A DNA stretch of 64,000 nucleotides, taken from the IMG/VR virus record IMGVR_UViG_3300029920_000005. One strand, given 5' to 3'. Shown in pieces: positions 3,455-56,377 of this stretch. Made by a program: the position numbers and the translations under genes. The notes beneath the pieces are model-generated. The model saw only the letters and a program-made list of their open reading frames with translations. It had not been told where the DNA came from and did not search any database. Origin of the DNA: an uncultured virus (IMG/VR IMGVR_UViG_3300029920_000005). Lineage: Duplodnaviria > Heunggongvirae > Uroviricota > Caudoviricetes. Within the stretch, counting starts at the first letter, position 1. Every line of letters starts with the position of its first letter.

Positions 3455-4045
3455 CTAAATGAACAATCTGCGGACGGCCAGCGCGCGCACCTCGTAGTCC
3501 TTGCTGATGTGGTATGGGCTGCCATCAGCGAAGACCTGGTCGTATGCGCTGCTCGGGCTGTACTGCGTGCTGGTGAGATACCAGCCCTTCGGAAACAGCG
3601 CCGCCATGTTGATTTCCACCAGCGCCAGCTCGCGCCGCGCCGGGAGGTAGAAATCGCTGAGGCCGTCGATGACGAGGCCTCGGGCCCATTCCGCCGCCGG
3701 ATGTTCGTGCTCCGATTCAACCAATGCCTTGGCATTGGCCCATCCATCCCAGTGGCTTTTCGCCCCCGGTTCGTCTTTGCCGTAACCGCCCCAAGCGATT
3801 TTCGCAATCTGGCCATCCGGATGCTCGGCGACGATCACGTAATACGGACGCGACCCGTCGGGTGGCACGATCAGCCCGGCGTTTTTTCCGCCTTGTCCCG
3901 GCCAGAGTTCGCCAGGGAGCGGCGTGCGCCCCATGTGCGATGTAAATATAGCTGCTTGGCTTTGCCGAGGTTCGGCGGTGCTTGCGTCGGCTGGCGCAAA
4001 ATTGATGGTCAAGTTCTGGATGGACAACTCGAATTTCGATCCCAT
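3455..4045 (-). CDS. Lcl/DUF1566 C-type lectin-fold protein, DGR target 1
   Basis: DFYLPARREL...WYLTSTQYS...VRALAVRR; C-terminal variable region rich in NNC codons. Confidence 0.85.
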   Translation of the reverse strand: MGSKFELSIQNLTINFAPADASTAEPRQSQAAIFTSHMGRTPLPGELWPGQGGKNAGLIVPPDGSRPYYVIVAEHPDGQIAKIAWGGYGKDEPGAKSHWDGWANAKALVESEHEHPAAEWARGLVIDGLSDFYLPARRELALVEINMAALFPKGWYLTSTQYSPSSAYDQVFADGSPYHISKDYEVRALAVRRLFI

Positions 4046-22568: not shown

Positions 22569-22606
22569 TTATTGGGGCGTAATTCAAAAAGGGGCGGGCA
22601 AGGGCG

Positions 22607-23155
22607 ATGATGTATCTAAACGACGAGCATGCAATTCGAAAATGTTTCGAAACATTGGAGCGCAACGGGCTGAAAATCGCCACCTACGGGGAGAATGTGC
22701 CGTCAACCGGCAGCAAGCTGAGCATTGGGGAATGCCACGTCAATGCTGCCTGGGTGATTAAATGGTTGATGGAGCTGCCAGCGCATCAGGGGCTGGTGCT
22801 GCGGCTGAAGTATGGCACCGACAATGAGACTCGCCGCGACGTGACGCTGGATCTGTCCTCGTTCGTGGTGCTGGAGATGGGGCGTGCGAGTATCAACAAA
22901 GCGCAGGCCCATTTCATTCTGTCGATGTGGGCGCAGCCTAAGCTGATTGCGAAAGAATACGCATCAGGGTGCAGGCCGGAAAAGAAGATCACGCCGGCCG
23001 ATTATATTGACGCGTTCGACGTCAGTCCGGACTCGGCCACCAGGCATATCCGACGCGTGTTCGACCTGGTGGATCGCTGGCGCCGGGAGGCTATCGCCGC
23101 TGTCCACCCCAAGCTGCAAAAACTGATCAGAGAGGATTTGGCGATGGTTGCTTGA
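22607..23155 (+). CDS. Putative late antiterminator (Q position)
   Basis: Last nin gene, immediately followed by a consensus promoter. Confidence 0.6.
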   Translation: MMYLNDEHAIRKCFETLERNGLKIATYGENVPSTGSKLSIGECHVNAAWVIKWLMELPAHQGLVLRLKYGTDNETRRDVTLDLSSFVVLEMGRASINKAQAHFILSMWAQPKLIAKEYASGCRPEKKITPADYIDAFDVSPDSATRHIRRVFDLVDRWRREAIAAVHPKLQKLIREDLAMVA

Positions 23156-23180
23156 CGCGAACTGCGGATTTGACTACTAT
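23152..23180 (+). promoter_or_regulatory. Late promoter PR'
   Basis: TTGACG-17bp-TACTAT. Confidence 0.75.
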
Positions 23181-23290
23181 AAACATGTAGTCTGCAATTT
23201 TTGCGTCTACCAGAAATCAAACCCGCCAGCGCCAAGCGTTCGCGGGTTTGATTCATTCCAGCACCACACCAAATTCATAACCCCACATCT

Positions 23291-23479
23291 TCACCGGTGT
23301 GGGGTTTTTTGCATCTCAGTAATCAGCAACTGACGGATAGCTGCGGCACCGACTTCACCGGCCCACGCCTTCACATCGGGCGGCACTTTGACAGTGAGAG
23401 CGACGAGGCCAGCGGCTCCGTCTTCTGCCTTGCGGCCGGCGCCCGGTCGAGCGCCTCCGCGTTTTGGTTGTTCGGCCAT
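23291..23479 (-). CDS. Aca-like small DNA-binding protein (RGGARPGAGRK + RHH-like)
   Basis: Last gene of an antisense operon, after the AcrIC5-like gene. Confidence 0.7.
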   Translation of the reverse strand: MAEQPKRGGARPGAGRKAEDGAAGLVALTVKVPPDVKAWAGEVGAAAIRQLLITEMQKTPHR

Positions 23480-23480
23480 G

Positions 23481-23819
23481 TCAGTTCAGAACGAAGTCTT
23501 CGTCGAATTTTGCCTTGTGCGCAGCCATGTAGGCGTCGAGAAATTCTTGATCGGTCTCGACTGTGCCATGGATTTGCTCGCACAGCTCGTCGTCCATCAG
23601 CGCGCGCGCTGCGGCCATATCCACCGGCTTGCCATTGAGCAGTACGTCAGTAGCGACTTCGGTGACAACGATTTCGCTGGGTTCGCCCAGCCGTGCAACC
23701 ATGTCCGCTTCGGACTTGTAGCCAGCATCTTGCGCTGCGATATCACGGGCTTCCTGTGCGGTTTCGGCTTCGATGATGCCAAAGTCACATGCGTTTGCTA
23801 CGACGTTAAATGCTTTCAT
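23481..23819 (-). CDS. Two-domain anti-CRISPR: unknown 55-aa domain fused to an AcrIC5-like domain
   Basis: C-terminal LNGKPVDMAAARALMDDELCEQIH...TDQEFLDAYMAAHKAKFDEDF matches my recollection of AcrIC5 (LNG..ID..AA..LMD.EL...LH...DQEFLDAY..AH.AKF); AGGAG RBS. Confidence 0.8.
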   Translation of the reverse strand: MKAFNVVANACDFGIIEAETAQEARDIAAQDAGYKSEADMVARLGEPSEIVVTEVATDVLLNGKPVDMAAARALMDDELCEQIHGTVETDQEFLDAYMAAHKAKFDEDFVLN

Positions 23820-23860
23820 GATGCGCTCCTGAGTGAGTGGTGTTTCGTTCCGTCCTGCTA

Positions 23861-23896
23861 TGATTGAATAGTATACCAATCAAACAGGATCCGCAA
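23861..23896 (-). promoter_or_regulatory. acr promoter with inverted-repeat operator
   Basis: TTGCGG-17bp-TACTAT; TGATTG-N10-CAATCA straddles the -10. Confidence 0.75.
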
Positions 23897-23948
23897 GATT
23901 TATTTGAGCCGCGCTTGCGAGTGTGGCTTTTTTGCATTCTGGGCACCC

Positions 23949-24146
23949 ATGAAGCTATCCGTCACCATTGGCACCGACTACCAGCTGCCTACGGGCCGGT
24001 ACGCGCGCTGTGTCGCCATCGAGCATCACCAGGTGTCATTCGTCTATTGCTGCTCAGGCGAGCCGGTAGCGATCCCAATGCAGCACGCATGGGAGCTATG
24101 GGGCCATCCGGCACCGTACGCTGCTTTCGAAGGGGCCGCGTCATGA
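23949..24146 (+). CDS. Hypothetical protein
   Basis: MKLSVTIG..., coupled to the next ORF. Confidence 0.5.
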   Translation: MKLSVTIGTDYQLPTGRYARCVAIEHHQVSFVYCCSGEPVAIPMQHAWELWGHPAPYAAFEGAAS

Positions 24147-24292
24147 TCGGACTTAAGACAGAAGATCGCCAGGGTGAGCATTCACTCGGTCGGATCGCCG
24201 AGGCCGCGCACGAAAGCCGGCAGGGCGTCGAGGATCCGGAAGACTGGATTGAGGCCGGCACGCAGCAGATAACCGAAGACGAGCAATCATAG
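24143..24292 (+). CDS. Hypothetical protein
   Basis: 49 aa, ATGA overlap. Confidence 0.4.
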   Translation: MIGLKTEDRQGEHSLGRIAEAAHESRQGVEDPEDWIEAGTQQITEDEQS

Positions 24293-24538
24293 CGAGAACG
24301 CCATGCCTGATATCGAACCCCAAGTCGCCGAACACCCGGCGCACCAGTTCCTAGACGCGATTCTGGAATGTGCCAGACAGCTAGGCGGCGATGCGCAGGG
24401 TGAGCTCCAGTATTTGGTGGGCGAGGTGCGGAAGGTGCTGTAACAACAACTGGTATTGTCGGGTGCTGATATAACCCCGGCAAAAACGCATCAAATCACC
24501 TAAGTGGTATTACGTGACGCCTAGGAGGCGATGCCCCT

Positions 24539-25351
24539 ATGGCTAGAGAACTTACACCAAAACAGCAGAGATTCGTCGAAGAGTACCTGCTTGACCTTGA
24601 CCCAGAACAAGCGGCACTAAGGGCTGGGTACAGCCCAAGCGTGGCAAGGTCAAAGGCGTTTCAATGGGTAAGCAAAAGTAAGCAAAATCCCAGCAAGAAT
24701 ATTGCTGTTGCCGTGCAAAAAGCGATGCAAGCGCGCTCAGAAAAGACCGGCATTACAGCTGAGGCTGTGTTGGAGCGACTGTGGAATATTGCCACTGCCG
24801 ATCCGAATGGTCTGGTCGAATACCGCCGCAACTGCTGTCGGCACTGTTGGGGCGAAGACCATCTATTTCAGTGGACGGAAGGCGAGTTTACCGAGGCGCA
24901 GCGCAAGGCCGACGACAAAGGCGACGATCCCCCCGAAATTCAAGGTGGCTTTGGTTTCAATGCCACCCGCGTACCGCACCCCGAATGTCCAGAATGCGGT
25001 GGCGATGGACGCGGGCACGTTCACATCCACGACACGCGCAAGGTCAAAGGCGCCGCCCGTCTGATCTATGCCGGCGTAAAGCAAGGCAAGGATGGCACTG
25101 AGCTGAAGATCGTCGATCAATTATCGGCTCTGAAACAGGTTGCCGAGCACGTTGGATTGTTTCGCGACAAGGATGCGAATAGGCGGGCTCAGGAAGCGCA
25201 CGAATCACACATGGCGATTGCGGCCCTTGATGCGGAGACGAAACGCCTCGCCTTGGCTTCCCAAAAAACCACGGATCAATCGAGCGACGAAATGAGTTCT
25301 GAATACAGGTTGCCGGTCGATGAAGATATCCCCCAGAAACCAATCCTCTGA
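24539..25351 (+). CDS. terS: Terminase small subunit
   Basis: LTPKQQRFVEEYLLD...AALRAGYS; CRHCWG and CPECGGDG. Confidence 0.92.
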   Translation: MARELTPKQQRFVEEYLLDLDPEQAALRAGYSPSVARSKAFQWVSKSKQNPSKNIAVAVQKAMQARSEKTGITAEAVLERLWNIATADPNGLVEYRRNCCRHCWGEDHLFQWTEGEFTEAQRKADDKGDDPPEIQGGFGFNATRVPHPECPECGGDGRGHVHIHDTRKVKGAARLIYAGVKQGKDGTELKIVDQLSALKQVAEHVGLFRDKDANRRAQEAHESHMAIAALDAETKRLALASQKTTDQSSDEMSSEYRLPVDEDIPQKPIL

Positions 25352-26669
25352 AGCCGTCAAACTGACGCCAAAGCAGGCGAATATTTACGTATGGGGCTGG
25401 CAGCCAGAAGCCCGGTTTCGTGACGCGGTCTGCGGGCGCCGATTCGGTAAGACGTTCCTCGGTAAAGCCGAGATGCGCCGCGCGGCGCGCCTGGCTTCTC
25501 AGTGGGGTGTGAGCGTTGAGGATGAAATCTGGTACGCCGCCCCGACTTTCAAGCAAGCCAAGCGCGTTTTCTGGCGCCGACTGAAGCAGGCCATTCCGCC
25601 GTCATGGCGTGATGGTAAGCCGAACGAAACGGAGTGCGTCATCACCTTAAAGTCCGGCCACATCATGCGTGTGGTCGGGCTGGATAATTACGATAACCTG
25701 CGCGGATCGGGGTTATTCTTTGTCCTGGTCGATGAGTGGGCCGACTGTACGTACCGGGCGTGGGAAGAAGTGCTGCGCCCAATGCTGTCGACGTGCCGCT
25801 ACATTGTCGATGAGGCCGAGCGGCGCGGCGGCCATGCTTTGCGGATTGGCACCCCCAAAGGGTTCAACCATTGCTATGACACATACAGCAAGGGCCAGCC
25901 CGGTGGCGCCAAAGACCACAAGTCATGGTTATATACGTCGCTGCAGGGCGGCAACGTCCCGCCGGAAGAAATTGAAGTCGCCAGGTCCGACATGGACCCG
26001 CGTACGTTCCGGCAGGAATACGAAGCCAGCTTTGAAAATTTTGCCGGGCGCGTTTATTACGCATTTGACCGGCGCCATAACGTCAAGAAATGCCCACATA
26101 ACCCCGCATTGCCCATCCATGTCGGGATGGATTTCAACGTCAACCCGATGTCGGCGACGATTTTTCAGGAACAATCGGACGGCGAAGTGTGGCAGACCGG
26201 GGAAATCATTATCCCGACCAGTGATACCGGGGAGATGGCGAGAGAAATTAAGACGAGGTATGGGCGAATGGCGAATGGTGGCGCGCAGGACGTGTCGCAC
26301 ATCACCGTTTACCCGGATCCGGCCGGTGCGCAGCGCAAGACCAGCGCGCAGGGCAAAACCGACATTAGTATTCTGCGCGACGCGGGGCTGAGGGTGATCG
26401 CCATGTCGTCGCACCCTCTGGTGCGCGACCGCATTAATCTAGTCAATGGCCGCTTCTTGAGTGCCGCGGGGAAGCGAGCTCTTTATGTCGACCCGTCCTG
26501 CAAAGAGTCGGTCAAGTGCTACGAGCAGCTGACCTACAAAGAAGGCACGAACGAGCCAGACAAGAAAATGGGGCTGGATCACGTTCCAGACGCGACCGGT
26601 TATTATCTCTTCACCCGGTTCGCGCATACGCCAGCCCACGCAAAACACGTCCCGCACATGAATCGATAA
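25320..26669 (+). CDS. terL: Terminase large subunit
   Basis: GRRFGKT, LRG, VLVDE, GMDFN, DH..DA nuclease motifs. Confidence 0.95.
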   Translation: MKISPRNQSSEAVKLTPKQANIYVWGWQPEARFRDAVCGRRFGKTFLGKAEMRRAARLASQWGVSVEDEIWYAAPTFKQAKRVFWRRLKQAIPPSWRDGKPNETECVITLKSGHIMRVVGLDNYDNLRGSGLFFVLVDEWADCTYRAWEEVLRPMLSTCRYIVDEAERRGGHALRIGTPKGFNHCYDTYSKGQPGGAKDHKSWLYTSLQGGNVPPEEIEVARSDMDPRTFRQEYEASFENFAGRVYYAFDRRHNVKKCPHNPALPIHVGMDFNVNPMSATIFQEQSDGEVWQTGEIIIPTSDTGEMAREIKTRYGRMANGGAQDVSHITVYPDPAGAQRKTSAQGKTDISILRDAGLRVIAMSSHPLVRDRINLVNGRFLSAAGKRALYVDPSCKESVKCYEQLTYKEGTNEPDKKMGLDHVPDATGYYLFTRFAHTPAHAKHVPHMNR

Positions 26670-54889: not shown

Positions 54890-55161
54890 ATGTGAAAAAG
54901 TACAAAATCAAAAGAATGGCCGCCACGCTGGTGCTGCTGCTGATCGGCTTCGCGGTCGGCTGGGACGTGGGCGCATGGCGCGCACCAGTGGTGCGGACGG
55001 TCATCCGGTTCGTGCAGCCACTGCCGACACCGTCGTGTCCGGTCATTAAGTCAGCGGCGACGCCGGCTAAGCATGCCCACAGGCACCATCGGCATCATCA
55101 TTGGCGCGCGGTCGCGTGCGTCAATCCGCCCGGCTCAGCGCCAGCCGTATCCCCTCGCTGA
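54886..55161 (+). CDS. Membrane-anchored small protein
   Basis: N-terminal TM, His-rich tail. Confidence 0.5.
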   Translation: MNVKKYKIKRMAATLVLLLIGFAVGWDVGAWRAPVVRTVIRFVQPLPTPSCPVIKSAATPAKHAHRHHRHHHWRAVACVNPPGSAPAVSPR

Positions 55162-55504
55162 CATTCCCGTCACCCAGGCGCTTCGCTGCCTCAAGGCTCG
55201 CGGCGTCAAGGTACACATTGACCCGCTTGCCCCCCTCCATCTCTGCTGGCCGCCCGACTGTAGGCCACTCGATTTCGTCCAGCTTGTCGCGCCAGTAGTC
55301 CGCCGTGCCGGGCGTGCGGTCAAAGCGGTGGAACGCGATCTGGCGATTGCTATAGGTCAGTACGGCGGCGAGCTTCTGCCCGTCGAGGTCGCTCCGATTG
55401 ACGAGCGCGACAAAAGCCTCGGAGGCGGCGCCTTGGTCAGCCGTAATGGTCTTCGACTCAGGCAGTACCTGCTGATCGAAGGTGCGCAAATAGACTCGAT
55501 ACAT
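55121..55504 (-). CDS. Aca-like regulator with C-terminal RHH
   Basis: GRP....GKRVNVYLD.......LGDGNVSEGIRLAL; last gene of the operon. Confidence 0.7.
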   Translation of the reverse strand: MYRVYLRTFDQQVLPESKTITADQGAASEAFVALVNRSDLDGQKLAAVLTYSNRQIAFHRFDRTPGTADYWRDKLDEIEWPTVGRPAEMEGGKRVNVYLDAASLEAAKRLGDGNVSEGIRLALSRAD

Positions 55505-55551
55505 GGCGATCTCCGGCGAAAAGCCCCGGCCTCCCGGGGCGTAATATGGTT

Positions 55552-55833
55552 TTATTTTTGAGTCGCAGCTTTTGCGAAAGCCTTCCCGTACCGGATCGCT
55601 GCGGCGGCATCAAAATTCGCGCCTCCCTCACTCAAAAATTCAAGCTGCGCTTCCAGTGCGGCCTCGTCGACCGCGTACCCGCTTTCGATTTGAGCCTCAG
55701 CCGCGTACTGCCCGGCCAGCTGCTCGGCGGTAAATTCGATGCCCTGCATGCCCTCGGTAAATGGCGCATCGTTGATCAGGTCTACTACGGCGGCAAAGCT
55801 TGCGGCGCTGCGGATCGATAGGCTGGCGTACAT
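55552..55833 (-). CDS. AcrIF6-like anti-CRISPR
   Basis: VVDLIND...EQLAGQYA.EA...LEAQLEFLSEGGANFDAAAAI resembles my recollection of AcrIF6 (IIEAINND...EIAGYYAWDA...AHLEVLEERGAKIDRDAAI). Confidence 0.7.
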   Translation of the reverse strand: MYASLSIRSAASFAAVVDLINDAPFTEGMQGIEFTAEQLAGQYAAEAQIESGYAVDEAALEAQLEFLSEGGANFDAAAAIRYGKAFAKAATQK

Positions 55834-55917
55834 GCGATTCTCCAAATTTCGTGCGGCATATGCCGCGCTGCCTGTTCGGCAGTGAAGAGGAGGCCCGGTT
55901 TCCCGGGCTGTTTTCGA

Positions 55918-56259
55918 TTATTGGGTTACTTCGGTGGCGACGATCTCGCTGGGGGCGCCAAGCTGCGCAACCATGTCGTCTTCGGACTTGTAACCAGCGT
56001 CTTGTGCTGCGATATCGCGGGCCTGTTGAGCGGTTTCGGCTTCGATCAGGCCGAAATCGCAGGCGTTTGCCGTGACCTGCCAGGTCTTCATTTGATTACC
56101 AAGAGCGACGACGCCGTCTTCGTCAACGATGCGCAGACCGCGCCAGCCCAGATTGCTTTCCAGCTCCGCCAATGCCGATTTTGCTTCTGCCAGGGTTTCG
56201 AAATCACCTTCAGCTACGGGTTCGAACTGAAAGCTGGTGCGCGATTGAATGGTGAACAT
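55918..56259 (-). CDS. Two-domain acidic protein, candidate anti-CRISPR
   Basis: First gene of the operon; its C-terminal 55 aa are 45/55 identical to the N-terminus of 23481-23819. Confidence 0.75.
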   Translation of the reverse strand: MFTIQSRTSFQFEPVAEGDFETLAEAKSALAELESNLGWRGLRIVDEDGVVALGNQMKTWQVTANACDFGLIEAETAQQARDIAAQDAGYKSEDDMVAQLGAPSEIVATEVTQ

Positions 56260-56333
56260 GATGGCGATCCTTTATCTGATCTTCCCGGAACCCGCCGGTG
56301 CGGTGGATGGTGTTGTTTGCCGTCCATGAGTTA

Positions 56334-56377
56334 ATTATATACACACTAAATTATTTTGCAAGAATTATGTATGTATA
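56334..56377 (-). promoter_or_regulatory. acr promoter with inverted-repeat operator
   Basis: TTGCAA-16bp-TATAAT; TATACACAC (56338-56346) and GTATGTATA (56369-56377) form an inverted pair. Confidence 0.75.

What the first reader, a model, noticed from the sequence alone, without database searches (positions are those of the whole stretch)
23291..23896. Anti-CRISPR operon 1: AcrIC5-like domain fused to an unknown domain, with an RHH-type regulator
Seen: a two-gene antisense operon inserted just downstream of the late promoter, with a consensus promoter and an inverted repeat over its -10. The C-terminal half of the first gene matches AcrIC5 as I recall it. Known: acr genes sit upstream of autoregulatory aca genes that bind promoter inverted repeats, and Acr-Acr fusions exist (e.g. 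AcrIE4-F7). Inference: a dual-function Acr; the RGGARPGAGRK protein acts as an Aca and can serve as a new search marker.
Basis: partly seen in the sequence, partly recalled or inferred. Interest (0 to 1): 0.75.

Follow-up and report, generated by a model that had tools for sequence, protein, structure and literature searches.

The report
Two-domain anti-CRISPR with ribbon-helix-helix regulator
A phage carries a small two-gene cassette whose first protein joins a known CRISPR-blocking domain (AcrIC5) to a widespread unnamed domain, and whose second protein looks like a new type of repressor for such cassettes, so both unnamed parts could help find more phage counter-defence genes.

Summary
On the minus strand, gene 1 (23481-23819, 112 aa) and gene 2 (23291-23479, 62 aa) lie 1 nt apart between plus-strand phage genes. 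Residues 58-112 of gene 1 are an AcrIC5 domain (Pfam 62.3 bits against a cut-off of 27; model against 7YHR Z 10.0). Residues 1-57 belong to an unannotated, mostly viral family of 299 clusters. It often stands alone, in three loci directly before Aca10 homologues, and it is fused to about 60 different partner types. Gene 2 has a disordered Gly/Arg arm followed by a ribbon-helix-helix-like core (32 of 33 fold matches are RHH proteins, all at low Z). Close homologues of gene 2 sit behind the same conserved promoter and palindrome downstream of AcrIF11-family and AcrF31-family genes, and one is fused to an AcrIF1 domain. The best reading is an acr-aca operon with a two-module inhibitor and an RHH-type autorepressor. 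Corrections: the promoter is not consensus (7 of 12), the arm motif alone is not specific, and the inhibitory role of the N-terminal half is inferred only. No function was tested.

The parts
23891..23896 (-). likely -35 element, TTGCGG
   Evidence: Found by hand and by script: TTGnnn-17-TA(C/T)TAT sits at the same place in the window, L016, L017 and L019. It was not reported by the consensus scan.
23868..23873 (-). likely -10 element, TACTAT
   Evidence: It lies 17 nt after the -35 in all four related operons. It lies inside the palindrome.
23864..23883 (.). 20-bp imperfect palindrome TTGATTGGTA|TACTATTCAA, the candidate operator
   Evidence: Paired positions are 8 of 10 in the window, 7 of 10 in L016, 8 of 10 in L017 (with a G-to-A and C-to-T double change that keeps a pair), and 8 of 10 in L019 with 1 extra central base. 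It is the longest invariant block in the 4-way alignment. The 24-nt core occurs once in the window at up to 3 mismatches.
   Evidence: It is a perfect 6+6 in the window and 5 of 6 in L016, L017 and L019. It is an alternative register of the same operator region.
23820..23860 (-). 5' leader with a conserved GCAGGACG-AAC block and AGGAG (23826-23830)
   Evidence: The block is conserved in the 4-way alignment. The Shine-Dalgarno site was read. The transcription start was not mapped.
23481..23819 (-). gene 1, 112 aa, a two-domain acidic protein (pI 4.1)
   Evidence: The AlphaFold2 model has mean pLDDT 91.2. The same fusion architecture is seen in diverged proteins P0002, P0044, P0099 and in L012.
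23649..23819 (-). N-terminal domain (residues 1-57), unannotated family, strand-strand-helix-helix-strand
   Evidence: No Pfam, PHROGs, NCBIfam or PDB sequence match. A profile search found 299 cluster representatives at E<=0.001 and 131 at E<=1e-10. Fold matches are weak only: PurS Z 5.4, AcrIE2 Z 4.2.
23484..23648 (-). AcrIC5 domain (residues 58-112)
   Evidence: Pfam PF22147, 62.3 bits against a cut-off of 27. 7yhr_A E 8.3e-11. Foldseek TM 0.83, rmsd 1.5 A. VIA-align Z 10.0, rmsd 1.3 A, 56 residues, 52% identity.
23408..23479 (-). gene 2, Gly/Arg-rich N-terminal arm (residues 1-24, KRGGARPGAGRKAEDGAAG)
   Evidence: Low pLDDT (49-52) in the model. It is the most conserved part of the family: R7, G8, G9, R11 and G13-A18 are invariant in 10 sequences.
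23306..23407 (-). gene 2, RHH-like core (extended segment 25-33, helices 34-43 and 45-58)
   Evidence: The model has pLDDT 88-93 over residues 31-60. Of 33 chains with Z>=2, 32 are ribbon-helix-helix proteins and all have Z<=3.3.
23279..23306 (.). GC-rich hairpin that overlaps the end of gene 2 (stop codon at 23291-23293)
   Evidence: The scan calls it a plus-strand terminator with a T run. On the minus strand no T run follows it, so whether it ends the acr operon is not shown.

Best explanation
This is an anti-CRISPR operon (acr-aca type) placed antisense between the early and replication genes and the packaging genes of a phage.

Gene 1 is a two-module acidic inhibitor. Its C-terminal AcrIC5 domain most likely blocks target-DNA binding by type I-C Cascade. 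AcrIC5 has been shown to do this in CRISPRi assays, and another study predicts that it sits on the PAM-recognition site of Cas8c. This step is inferred here from homology.

Its N-terminal 57 residues form an independent module of a large unannotated phage family. The module most likely inhibits a second target, either another CRISPR-Cas type or another defence. This step is inferred from association only.

Gene 2, probably translationally coupled to gene 1, is a small ribbon-helix-helix protein with a Gly/Arg arm. It most likely dimerises and binds the 20-bp palindrome over the -10 element. That would shut the strong early promoter once enough inhibitor has been made, as Aca proteins do. This step is inferred from fold, position, a conserved operator and recurrence with other acr genes.
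For: AcrIC5 domain:
- (see the parts list).
- Function of AcrIC5: passages of PMC7913775 report that it blocks CRISPRi and also inhibits the E. lenta type I-C system. Passages of bioRxiv 10.1101/2025.06.06.658234 predict a Cas8c PAM-site complex.
- The fusion is real. The same architecture is found in diverged proteins (P0002 57-58% identity, L012 54%, P0044, P0099).
- AcrIC5 is also fused to an AcrF31 Pfam domain in P0005.
- The AcrIC5 domain is at the C-terminus in all 37 other viral loci examined; at most 13 residues of open frame follow it.

N-terminal domain as an autonomous module:
- Of 154 family proteins, 83 are stand-alone.
- In L006, L007 and L009 a stand-alone copy is followed within a few bases by an Aca10 homologue (7xi5 E 1.5e-22, 7.1e-19 and 3.2e-19). 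7XI5 is Aca10 (PMC9410881).
- P0018 and P0021 are RHH plus N-domain fusions.
- A second copy (79% identity) lies in a second small operon of this same window.

Gene 2 as an Aca:
- RHH-like model and fold matches.
- Close homologues follow an AcrIF11-family gene in L016 (NCBIfam NF052490, 134.8 bits against a cut-off of 50; 8dwq E 5.8e-41).
- They also follow AcrF31-family genes in L017, L018 and L019 (E 9e-28 and 2e-25).
- P0186 is an AcrIF1 Pfam domain fused to this module.
- The promoter, palindrome and leader are conserved while the cargo genes differ.
- Precedent for RHH regulators of acr operons: Aca14, and the RHH domains of AcrIF25 and AcrIE10 (abstract and passages of bioRxiv 10.64898/2026.07.27.740549).
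Against: - No experiment was done: no inhibition, DNA binding or expression was tested.
- The host and its CRISPR types are unknown, because the window's own assembly is not held.
- The N-terminal domain matches no known Acr by sequence. Its fold matches are in the noise range, with AcrIE2 only Z 4.2 at rank 10.
- Eight of the 27 other N-domain loci show no regulator. Most of these are short contigs.
- For gene 2, no Pfam or NCBIfam RHH family matches and a profile search of PDB sequences found nothing meaningful.
- All fold Z scores for gene 2 are at most 3.3. The strand is not formed in the monomer model.
- The window promoter matches only 7 of 12 positions and was missed by the scan.
- A narrow profile of close gene 2 homologues barely detects the more distant 'arm plus RHH' proteins next to N-domain or AcrIC5 genes (E 0.002-0.5 among 5,799 frames). 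Homology across that wider set is therefore not established.
- The arm motif also occurs on an S24 peptidase.
Confidence: 0.7

Rival explanations
1. The N-terminal domain is not an inhibitor in its own right. It is an accessory module (for example for stability, oligomerisation or delivery) that serves whatever effector is fused or co-encoded. Under this reading, gene 1 is a single-function AcrIC5 with a helper domain.
For: The domain is unusually promiscuous. Of 154 family proteins, 71 are fusions (52 with it at the N-terminal end, 16 at the C-terminal end, 3 in the middle). Their 74 partner segments fall into 60 clusters. The same phage carries it twice, each time with a different partner. 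No known inhibitor fold was matched.
Against: 83 of 154 are stand-alone. In L006, L007, L009, L010 and L043 a stand-alone copy is the only gene ahead of a regulator. A helper with nothing to help is hard to explain.
Confidence: 0.17
2. Gene 2 is a general small DNA-binding protein of the phage (for example an early-gene repressor, an antitoxin-like protein or a partition-type RHH protein). It happens to lie next to the acr gene and is not a dedicated autorepressor of this operon.
For: RHH proteins serve many roles: the fold matches include antitoxins, ParG, omega and NikR. The Gly/Arg arm also occurs on a UmuD/LexA-like protein. No family annotation exists; all 337 relatives found are unnamed.
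Against: In four distinct operons the gene sits last, behind the same promoter and palindrome, with unrelated acr cargo. In P0186 it is fused to an AcrIF1 domain. The palindrome occurs once in 64 kb, at its own promoter.
Confidence: 0.1
3. The minus-strand ORFs are not the real genes. Instead, the 159-aa plus-strand ORF 23388-23867 that overlaps them is coding, or the fusion in gene 1 is an assembly or frameshift artefact.
For: A long plus-strand ORF is present.
Against: Both minus-strand products have conserved homologues and domain matches. The identical protein is recorded on 61 contigs. The fusion recurs in proteins only 54-58% identical. The model is confident, with pLDDT 91.2.
Confidence: 0.02

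Closest known systems
AcrIC5 (Pfam PF22147; PDB 7YHR; Leon et al. 2021, PMC7913775)
   Same: Residues 58-112 match in sequence (52-54% identity to the solved chain) and in predicted fold (Z 10.0, rmsd 1.3 A). The domain is acidic and sits in an acr-type operon.
   Different: The solved chain is 59-60 residues long. Here the domain is the C-terminal half of a 112-aa protein. The regulator next to it is RHH-like, not the HTH protein Aca1 reported for acrIC5.
Natural Acr-Acr fusions such as AcrIE4-F7
   Same: Two small modules, each found alone elsewhere, are joined in one polypeptide. AcrIE4-F7 and a candidate fusion of AcrIC5-like and AcrIIC4-like folds are mentioned in passages of PMC10799925.
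   Different: Only one of the two modules here belongs to a characterised Acr family. The other is unannotated and far more promiscuous in its fusions (60 partner clusters).
Aca14, the ribbon-helix-helix Aca (bioRxiv 10.64898/2026.07.27.740549)
   Same: Both are small RHH regulators encoded last in acr operons, with an AT-rich inverted repeat over the -10 element.
   Different: Aca14 is described with a long helical extension that enters the major groove. It is associated with AcrIF23, AcrIF6, AcrVA3 and csx20 in Pasteurella and relatives. Gene 2 has only two short helices plus a disordered Gly/Arg arm. It travels with AcrIC5, AcrIF11, AcrF31 and AcrIF1 families. No Aca14 sequence was at hand, so homology was not tested. 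The preprint's supplements are closed.
Aca10 (PDB 7XI5; PMC9410881)
   Same: The logic is the same: a small dimeric repressor binds a roughly 21-bp palindrome that overlaps the promoter of an acr operon. Aca10 homologues directly follow stand-alone copies of the N-terminal domain in L006, L007 and L009.
   Different: Aca10 is a helix-turn-helix protein. Gene 2 is not.
RHH repressors with DNA-contacting N-terminal arms (Arc, AmrZ)
   Same: The top fold matches include AmrZ (Z 3.3) and Arc (Z 2.6). That their N-terminal arms contact DNA is recalled, not checked here.
   Different: There is no detectable sequence similarity. The arm here is a conserved GGARxGAGRK motif.

Membership tests
AcrIC5 (PF22147) | Sequence match above the family's curated threshold | tested here: met
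   62.3 bits against a cut-off of 27, E 4.6e-17, residues 61-109 covering profile positions 3-53 of 53.
AcrIC5 (PF22147) | Fold of the solved AcrIC5 structure (7YHR) | tested here: met
   Predicted model: VIA-align Z 10.0, rmsd 1.3 A, 56 residues. Foldseek TM 0.83 by target. This is a model, not a structure.
AcrIC5 (PF22147) | Small stand-alone protein, like the 59-60-residue solved chain | tested here: not met
   Here it is the C-terminal half of a 112-aa protein. About 6 of 37 other viral loci also have N-terminal extensions of 45 aa or more, so fused forms are part of the family's natural range.
AcrIC5 (PF22147) | Inhibits type I-C interference by blocking DNA binding | not testable with these tools
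   Needs a plaque or CRISPRi assay. Known for AcrIC5 itself from PMC7913775.
Aca proteins (functional class) | Encoded in the same operon, directly after acr gene(s) | tested here: met
   There is a 1-nt gap after gene 1 on the same strand. The position is the same in L016, L017, L018 and L019.
Aca proteins (functional class) | Recurs with different, unrelated acr genes | tested here: met
   AcrIF11 family, AcrF31 Pfam family, an AcrIC5 fusion (window), and fusion to an AcrIF1 domain in P0186.
Aca proteins (functional class) | Inverted repeat in the operon's promoter, conserved with the regulator | tested here: met
   The 20-21 bp palindrome over the -10 element has 7-8 of 10 pairs in 4 operons, including one compensatory double change.
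Aca proteins (functional class) | Binds that repeat and represses the promoter | not testable with these tools
   Needs an EMSA and a reporter assay.
Ribbon-helix-helix superfamily | Strand-helix-helix topology | tested here: inconclusive
   The monomer model shows an extended segment 25-33 followed by helices 34-43 and 45-58. Of 33 fold matches, 32 are RHH proteins, but all have Z<=3.3. No Pfam RHH family matches.
Ribbon-helix-helix superfamily | Homodimer with a paired two-stranded sheet | not tested
   Complex prediction was full or unavailable on every try.
Aca14 | Sequence homology to the Pasteurella multocida founder | not testable with these tools
Aca14 | Long helical extension beyond the RHH core (as described in the preprint) | tested here: not met
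   The 62-aa model has only two short helices and a disordered N-terminal arm. It is therefore not filed as Aca14.
Acr-Acr fusion (AcrIE4-F7 type) | Each half exists as an independent protein elsewhere | tested here: met
   The N-terminal domain is alone in 83 of 154 proteins. AcrIC5 is alone in, for example, L061 (58 aa).
Acr-Acr fusion (AcrIE4-F7 type) | Both halves are inhibitors | not testable with these tools
   The N-terminal half has no characterised relative.

The most novel reading that the evidence does not exclude
The N-terminal 57-residue domain may be the founding member of a large, so far unnamed family of phage counter-defence modules (at least 299 clusters at 50% identity). It works alone and also serves as a favoured fusion partner. 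On this reading, the roughly 60 different unannotated segments fused to it, and the genes sharing its operons, are a ready-made catalogue of new anti-defence domains.

Together with it, the 'Gly/Arg arm plus RHH' protein would be a new Aca family, distinct from Aca14. It already links four known Acr families and can be used as a guilt-by-association anchor.
Probability: 0.45. Interest if true: 0.75.

Novelty: new member of a known kind. Interest (0 to 1): 0.55.

Why it matters
Most anti-CRISPR genes have been found by looking next to a few helix-turn-helix Aca markers. This locus offers two further anchors.

- The first is an RHH-type regulator with a recognisable arm and a conserved operator. 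Among the loci examined, it already sits next to genes of the AcrIC5, AcrIF11 and AcrF31 families, and one homologue is fused to an AcrIF1 domain.
- The second is a small acidic domain that recurs in acr-type operons and in many fusions.

If the domain is an inhibitor, it adds a widespread family and points to many candidate partners. If the regulator binds its palindrome, it extends the recently reported idea that acr operons are also controlled by non-HTH repressors. The AcrIC5 half itself is ordinary.

Tried and rejected
- **Nearest GenBank phages.** No DNA match for 22600-25400. No tblastn match for gene 2. Gene 1 gave only four partial hits.
- **Own genome.** It is not held. The nearest record, G001, is an identical 24.7-kb fragment and gave no variation. 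Host CRISPR types therefore could not be checked.
- **Species-representative genomes.** The N-domain profile found nothing. The closer alignment found 2 loci, a Chromobacterium subtsugae prophage and a Methylococcales MAG.
- **Gene 2 profile against PDB sequences.** Only designed repeat proteins matched; rejected as noise.
- **hhalign of the wide gene 2 alignment against neighbours.** The neighbours of L008 and L012 show no similarity. They are called RHH-like by eye only. The neighbour of L011 gives probability 93.8%.
- **Narrow gene 2 profile.** It gives only weak scores for the distant arm-RHH proteins and none for gene C of the window's second operon. I therefore keep 'close family' and 'same architecture' apart. 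The wide profile's hits to L005, L010 and L043 are by construction.
- **Operator motif scan of viral contigs.** 8 loci were found: 7 from the already known set and 1 chance match in an unrelated AT-rich phage, L025. No new operons.
- **Fold searches for the N-terminal domain.** PDB Foldseek found nothing besides AcrIC5. VIA-wide gave best matches PurS Z 5.4, ribosomal proteins and AcrIE2 Z 4.2. BFVD gave only uncharacterised small phage proteins. The ESM Atlas gave only 'hypothetical', mostly viral clusters. No fold assignment is made.
- **Literature for 'AcrIF31' and 'AcrF31'.** 0 papers. The name comes from Pfam only.
- **Supplement of PMC7913775.** It could not be read, so identity of the N-terminal domain with an Acr candidate listed there cannot be excluded.
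- **Complex prediction for a gene 2 homodimer.** Never accepted and then declared unavailable.
- **Earlier findings of this scan.** Nothing was returned.
Full report
**What is there.** The window is phage DNA of about 58% G+C. The finding lies between an HNH endonuclease gene plus a 182-aa unknown (plus strand, ending at 23155) and three small ORFs followed by the small and large terminase genes (plus strand, from 23949). Two ORFs lie on the opposite strand. Gene 1 is 23481-23819 (112 aa from an ATG preceded by AGGAG). Gene 2 is 23291-23479 (62 aa), starting 1 nt after the stop of gene 1. The identical proteins are recorded on 61 and 62 contigs. Identical DNA is in four IMG/VR fragments and one metagenome contig.

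**Gene 1, C-terminal half.**
- Pfam PF22147 (AcrIC5) matches residues 61-109 at E 4.6e-17, 62.3 bits against a cut-off of 27.
- The solved AcrIC5 chain 7yhr_A matches at E 8.3e-11.
- An AlphaFold2 model built from 18 aligned sequences has mean pLDDT 91.2 and two compact domains.
- Its residues 57-112 superpose on 7YHR with Z 10.0, rmsd 1.3 A, 56 residues and 52% identity. Foldseek gives TM 0.83.
- AcrIC5 was found next to aca1 in Pseudomonas. It blocks CRISPRi and also inhibits a distant type I-C system (passages of PMC7913775). A preprint predicts that it covers the PAM-recognition site of Cas8c (passages).

**Gene 1, N-terminal half.** Residues 1-57 (strand-strand-helix-helix-strand, pI 4.1) match nothing in Pfam, PHROGs, NCBIfam or PDB sequences.
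- A profile of 11 sequences found 299 cluster representatives at E<=0.001, 131 of them at E<=1e-10, in 1.84 billion proteins.
- Of the 149 listed representatives scanned against Pfam, 2 carry AcrIC5, 1 is a long repetitive oddity and 146 have no family.
- Of 154 proteins with the domain, 83 are stand-alone. It is the N-terminal part of a fusion in 52, the C-terminal part in 16 and in the middle in 3. The 74 partner segments fall into 60 clusters, and the AcrIC5 partner cluster has 4 members.
- The Atlas's look-alike clusters are 'hypothetical' and, in three of the six rows shown, mostly viral.
- Fold searches gave only weak matches: PurS Z 5.4, and AcrIE2 Z 4.2 at rank 10. I assign no fold family.

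**Is the N-terminal half an inhibitor?** The evidence is associative. I examined 27 loci other than copies of the window's operon 1: 8 viral and 19 metagenomic.
- 3 have a stand-alone copy followed within a few bases by an Aca10 homologue. These are L006, L007 and L009, with 7xi5 E 1.5e-22, 7.1e-19 and 3.2e-19. 7XI5 is Aca10, which binds a 21-bp palindrome in its acr promoter.
- 3 have another HTH gene whose start overlaps its stop: L038 and L039, which are the same element, and L042.
- 10 have an 'arm plus RHH' protein by my wide profile: L005, L010, L011, L036, L043, L046, L047, L048, L050 and L052. L005, L010 and L043 are hits by construction.
- 3 have an RHH-like neighbour by eye only: L008, L012 and L041.
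- 8 show none. Most of these are contigs of 1-2 kb.

Two proteins, P0018 and P0021, fuse an RHH domain directly to this domain. Where a stand-alone copy is the only cargo before a regulator, it must act by itself. That argues against a pure helper role. Its target is unknown.

**Gene 2.** No family library matches it. Its model (pLDDT 73.9) has a disordered arm over residues 1-24, an extended segment over 25-33 and helices at 34-43 and 45-58. Against 48,161 chains, 33 scored Z>=2. Of these, 32 are ribbon-helix-helix proteins, including AmrZ, CopA, ArtA, PutA, SvtR, NikR, ParG, Arc, omega, several antitoxins and AcrIE10. All have Z<=3.3, as expected for about 38 residues. I take the fold as probable, not shown. 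A dimer model could not be obtained.

**Gene 2 behaves like an Aca.** Close homologues (45-64% identity) occupy the last position of operons with different first genes:
- an AcrIF11-family ADP-ribosyltransferase in L016 (NCBIfam, 134.8 bits against a cut-off of 50; 8dwq E 5.8e-41; 8DWQ is AcrIF11 Pae2);
- AcrF31-family proteins in L017, L018 and L019. A homologue with the sequence read from L017 (P0165) and one more (P0176) are named by their sources as Chromobacterium subtsugae and C. amazonense proteins, and the contig held as L031, a match of the same family, is C. subtsugae.

P0186 joins an AcrIF1 Pfam domain to this module in one protein. At least 337 relatives exist, all unnamed.

More distant proteins of the same architecture follow a stand-alone AcrIC5 in L061 and N-domain genes (listed above). 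A narrow profile barely detects them, so I do not claim that they are one family.

**Promoter and operator.** The window, L016, L017/L018 and L019 share a block running from the -35 element to the start codon, while their cargo genes are unrelated.
- The architecture is TTGnnn-17-TA(C/T)TAT. It matches 7 of 12 positions in the window and 9 of 12 in the others. It is not 'consensus' and was missed by the scan.
- A palindrome TTGATTGGTA|TACTATTCAA centred on 23873/23874 has 8, 7, 8 and 8 of 10 pairs in the four operons. L017 has a double change that keeps a pair, and L019 has one extra central base.
- Both registers cover the -10 element.
- The 24-nt core occurs once in the window.
- This mirrors what is reported for Aca10 and for the RHH regulator Aca14.

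**Comparison and novelty.** acr-aca operons, Acr-Acr fusions and, since a 2026 preprint, RHH-type Acas are all known kinds. The AcrIC5 half is a new member of a known family. The new points are:
- an unannotated, widespread and unusually fusion-prone domain with repeated acr-operon context;
- an RHH regulator with a conserved Gly/Arg arm that differs from the description of Aca14 (no long helical extension) and links four Acr families.

Whether it lies within the preprint's PSI-BLAST set cannot be checked here, because its supplements are closed and no Aca14 sequence is at hand. The arm alone is not specific: in L032 it heads a Peptidase_S24 protein next to a umuC-like gene.

**Verdict.** The AcrIC5 assignment and the Aca-like role of gene 2 are well supported by computation. 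The second inhibitory function is inferred. Nothing was tested at the bench.

Noticed in passing
window 55121-56361, minus strand: A second small operon with the same logic. Gene A (55918-56259, 113 aa) is an unknown 56-aa part plus a second copy of the N-terminal domain (79% identical to that of gene 1). Gene B (55552-55845, 97 aa) is acidic and unknown. Gene C (55121-55504, 127 aa) is an unknown ~85-aa part plus a VGRP arm plus an RHH-like end. A TTGCAA-16-TATAAT promoter lies upstream. L005 is the same sequence.
   Followed up: partly
window 23152-23312, plus strand: A promoter-like TTGACG-17-TACTAT site is followed by a hairpin that I read by eye (about 23225-23255; not reported by the scan) and by the terminator-like hairpin with a T run at 23279-23306 that the scan reports. 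It sits just before the 3' end of the acr operon. It resembles a lambdoid late promoter and terminator unit. If it is read through late in infection, transcription would run antisense across the acr operon.
   Followed up: no
L032 1293-1880: In a Methylococcales MAG, the KRGGARPGAGRK arm sits at the N-terminus of a 195-aa Peptidase_S24 (UmuD/LexA-like) protein next to a umuC-like gene. The arm is therefore a more general DNA-binding accessory.
   Followed up: partly
L019 3787-4188; L020 2106-2486; window 55121-55504: Proteins of 126-133 aa join an unknown N-terminal domain to a Gly/Arg arm and an RHH-like end. They have no Pfam or PDB sequence match. They are candidate self-regulating anti-defence proteins.
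   Followed up: partly
L012 about 3890-4000: The other phage with an N-domain/AcrIC5 fusion has a different small downstream protein. It also has a perfect 8-bp inverted repeat, TGCGTTGT...ACAACGCA, flanking its TACTAT -10 element (read by eye from the output).
   Followed up: no
L036 1028-1255; L046 1635-1790: A small, very acidic protein (51-75 aa, ending ...SNDxTxSFTAP) recurs in N-domain operons just before the arm-RHH gene. It is another candidate inhibitor.
   Followed up: no
L060-L096 (37 viral loci): The AcrIC5 domain is always at the C-terminal end; at most 13 residues of open frame follow it. About 6 of the 37 loci have N-terminal extensions of 45 aa or more.
   Followed up: partly
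window 23820-23860 and the aligned leaders of L016, L017 and L019: A GCAGGACG(A/G)AAC block in the 5' leader is conserved downstream of the -10 element. Its role is unknown. It could be a second protein site or an RNA element.
   Followed up: no
P0005 and P0248: An AcrF31-AcrIC5 fusion protein and a gene 2 homologue both list a longest contig of 15,918 nt, so they may be neighbours. This was not verified.
   Followed up: no
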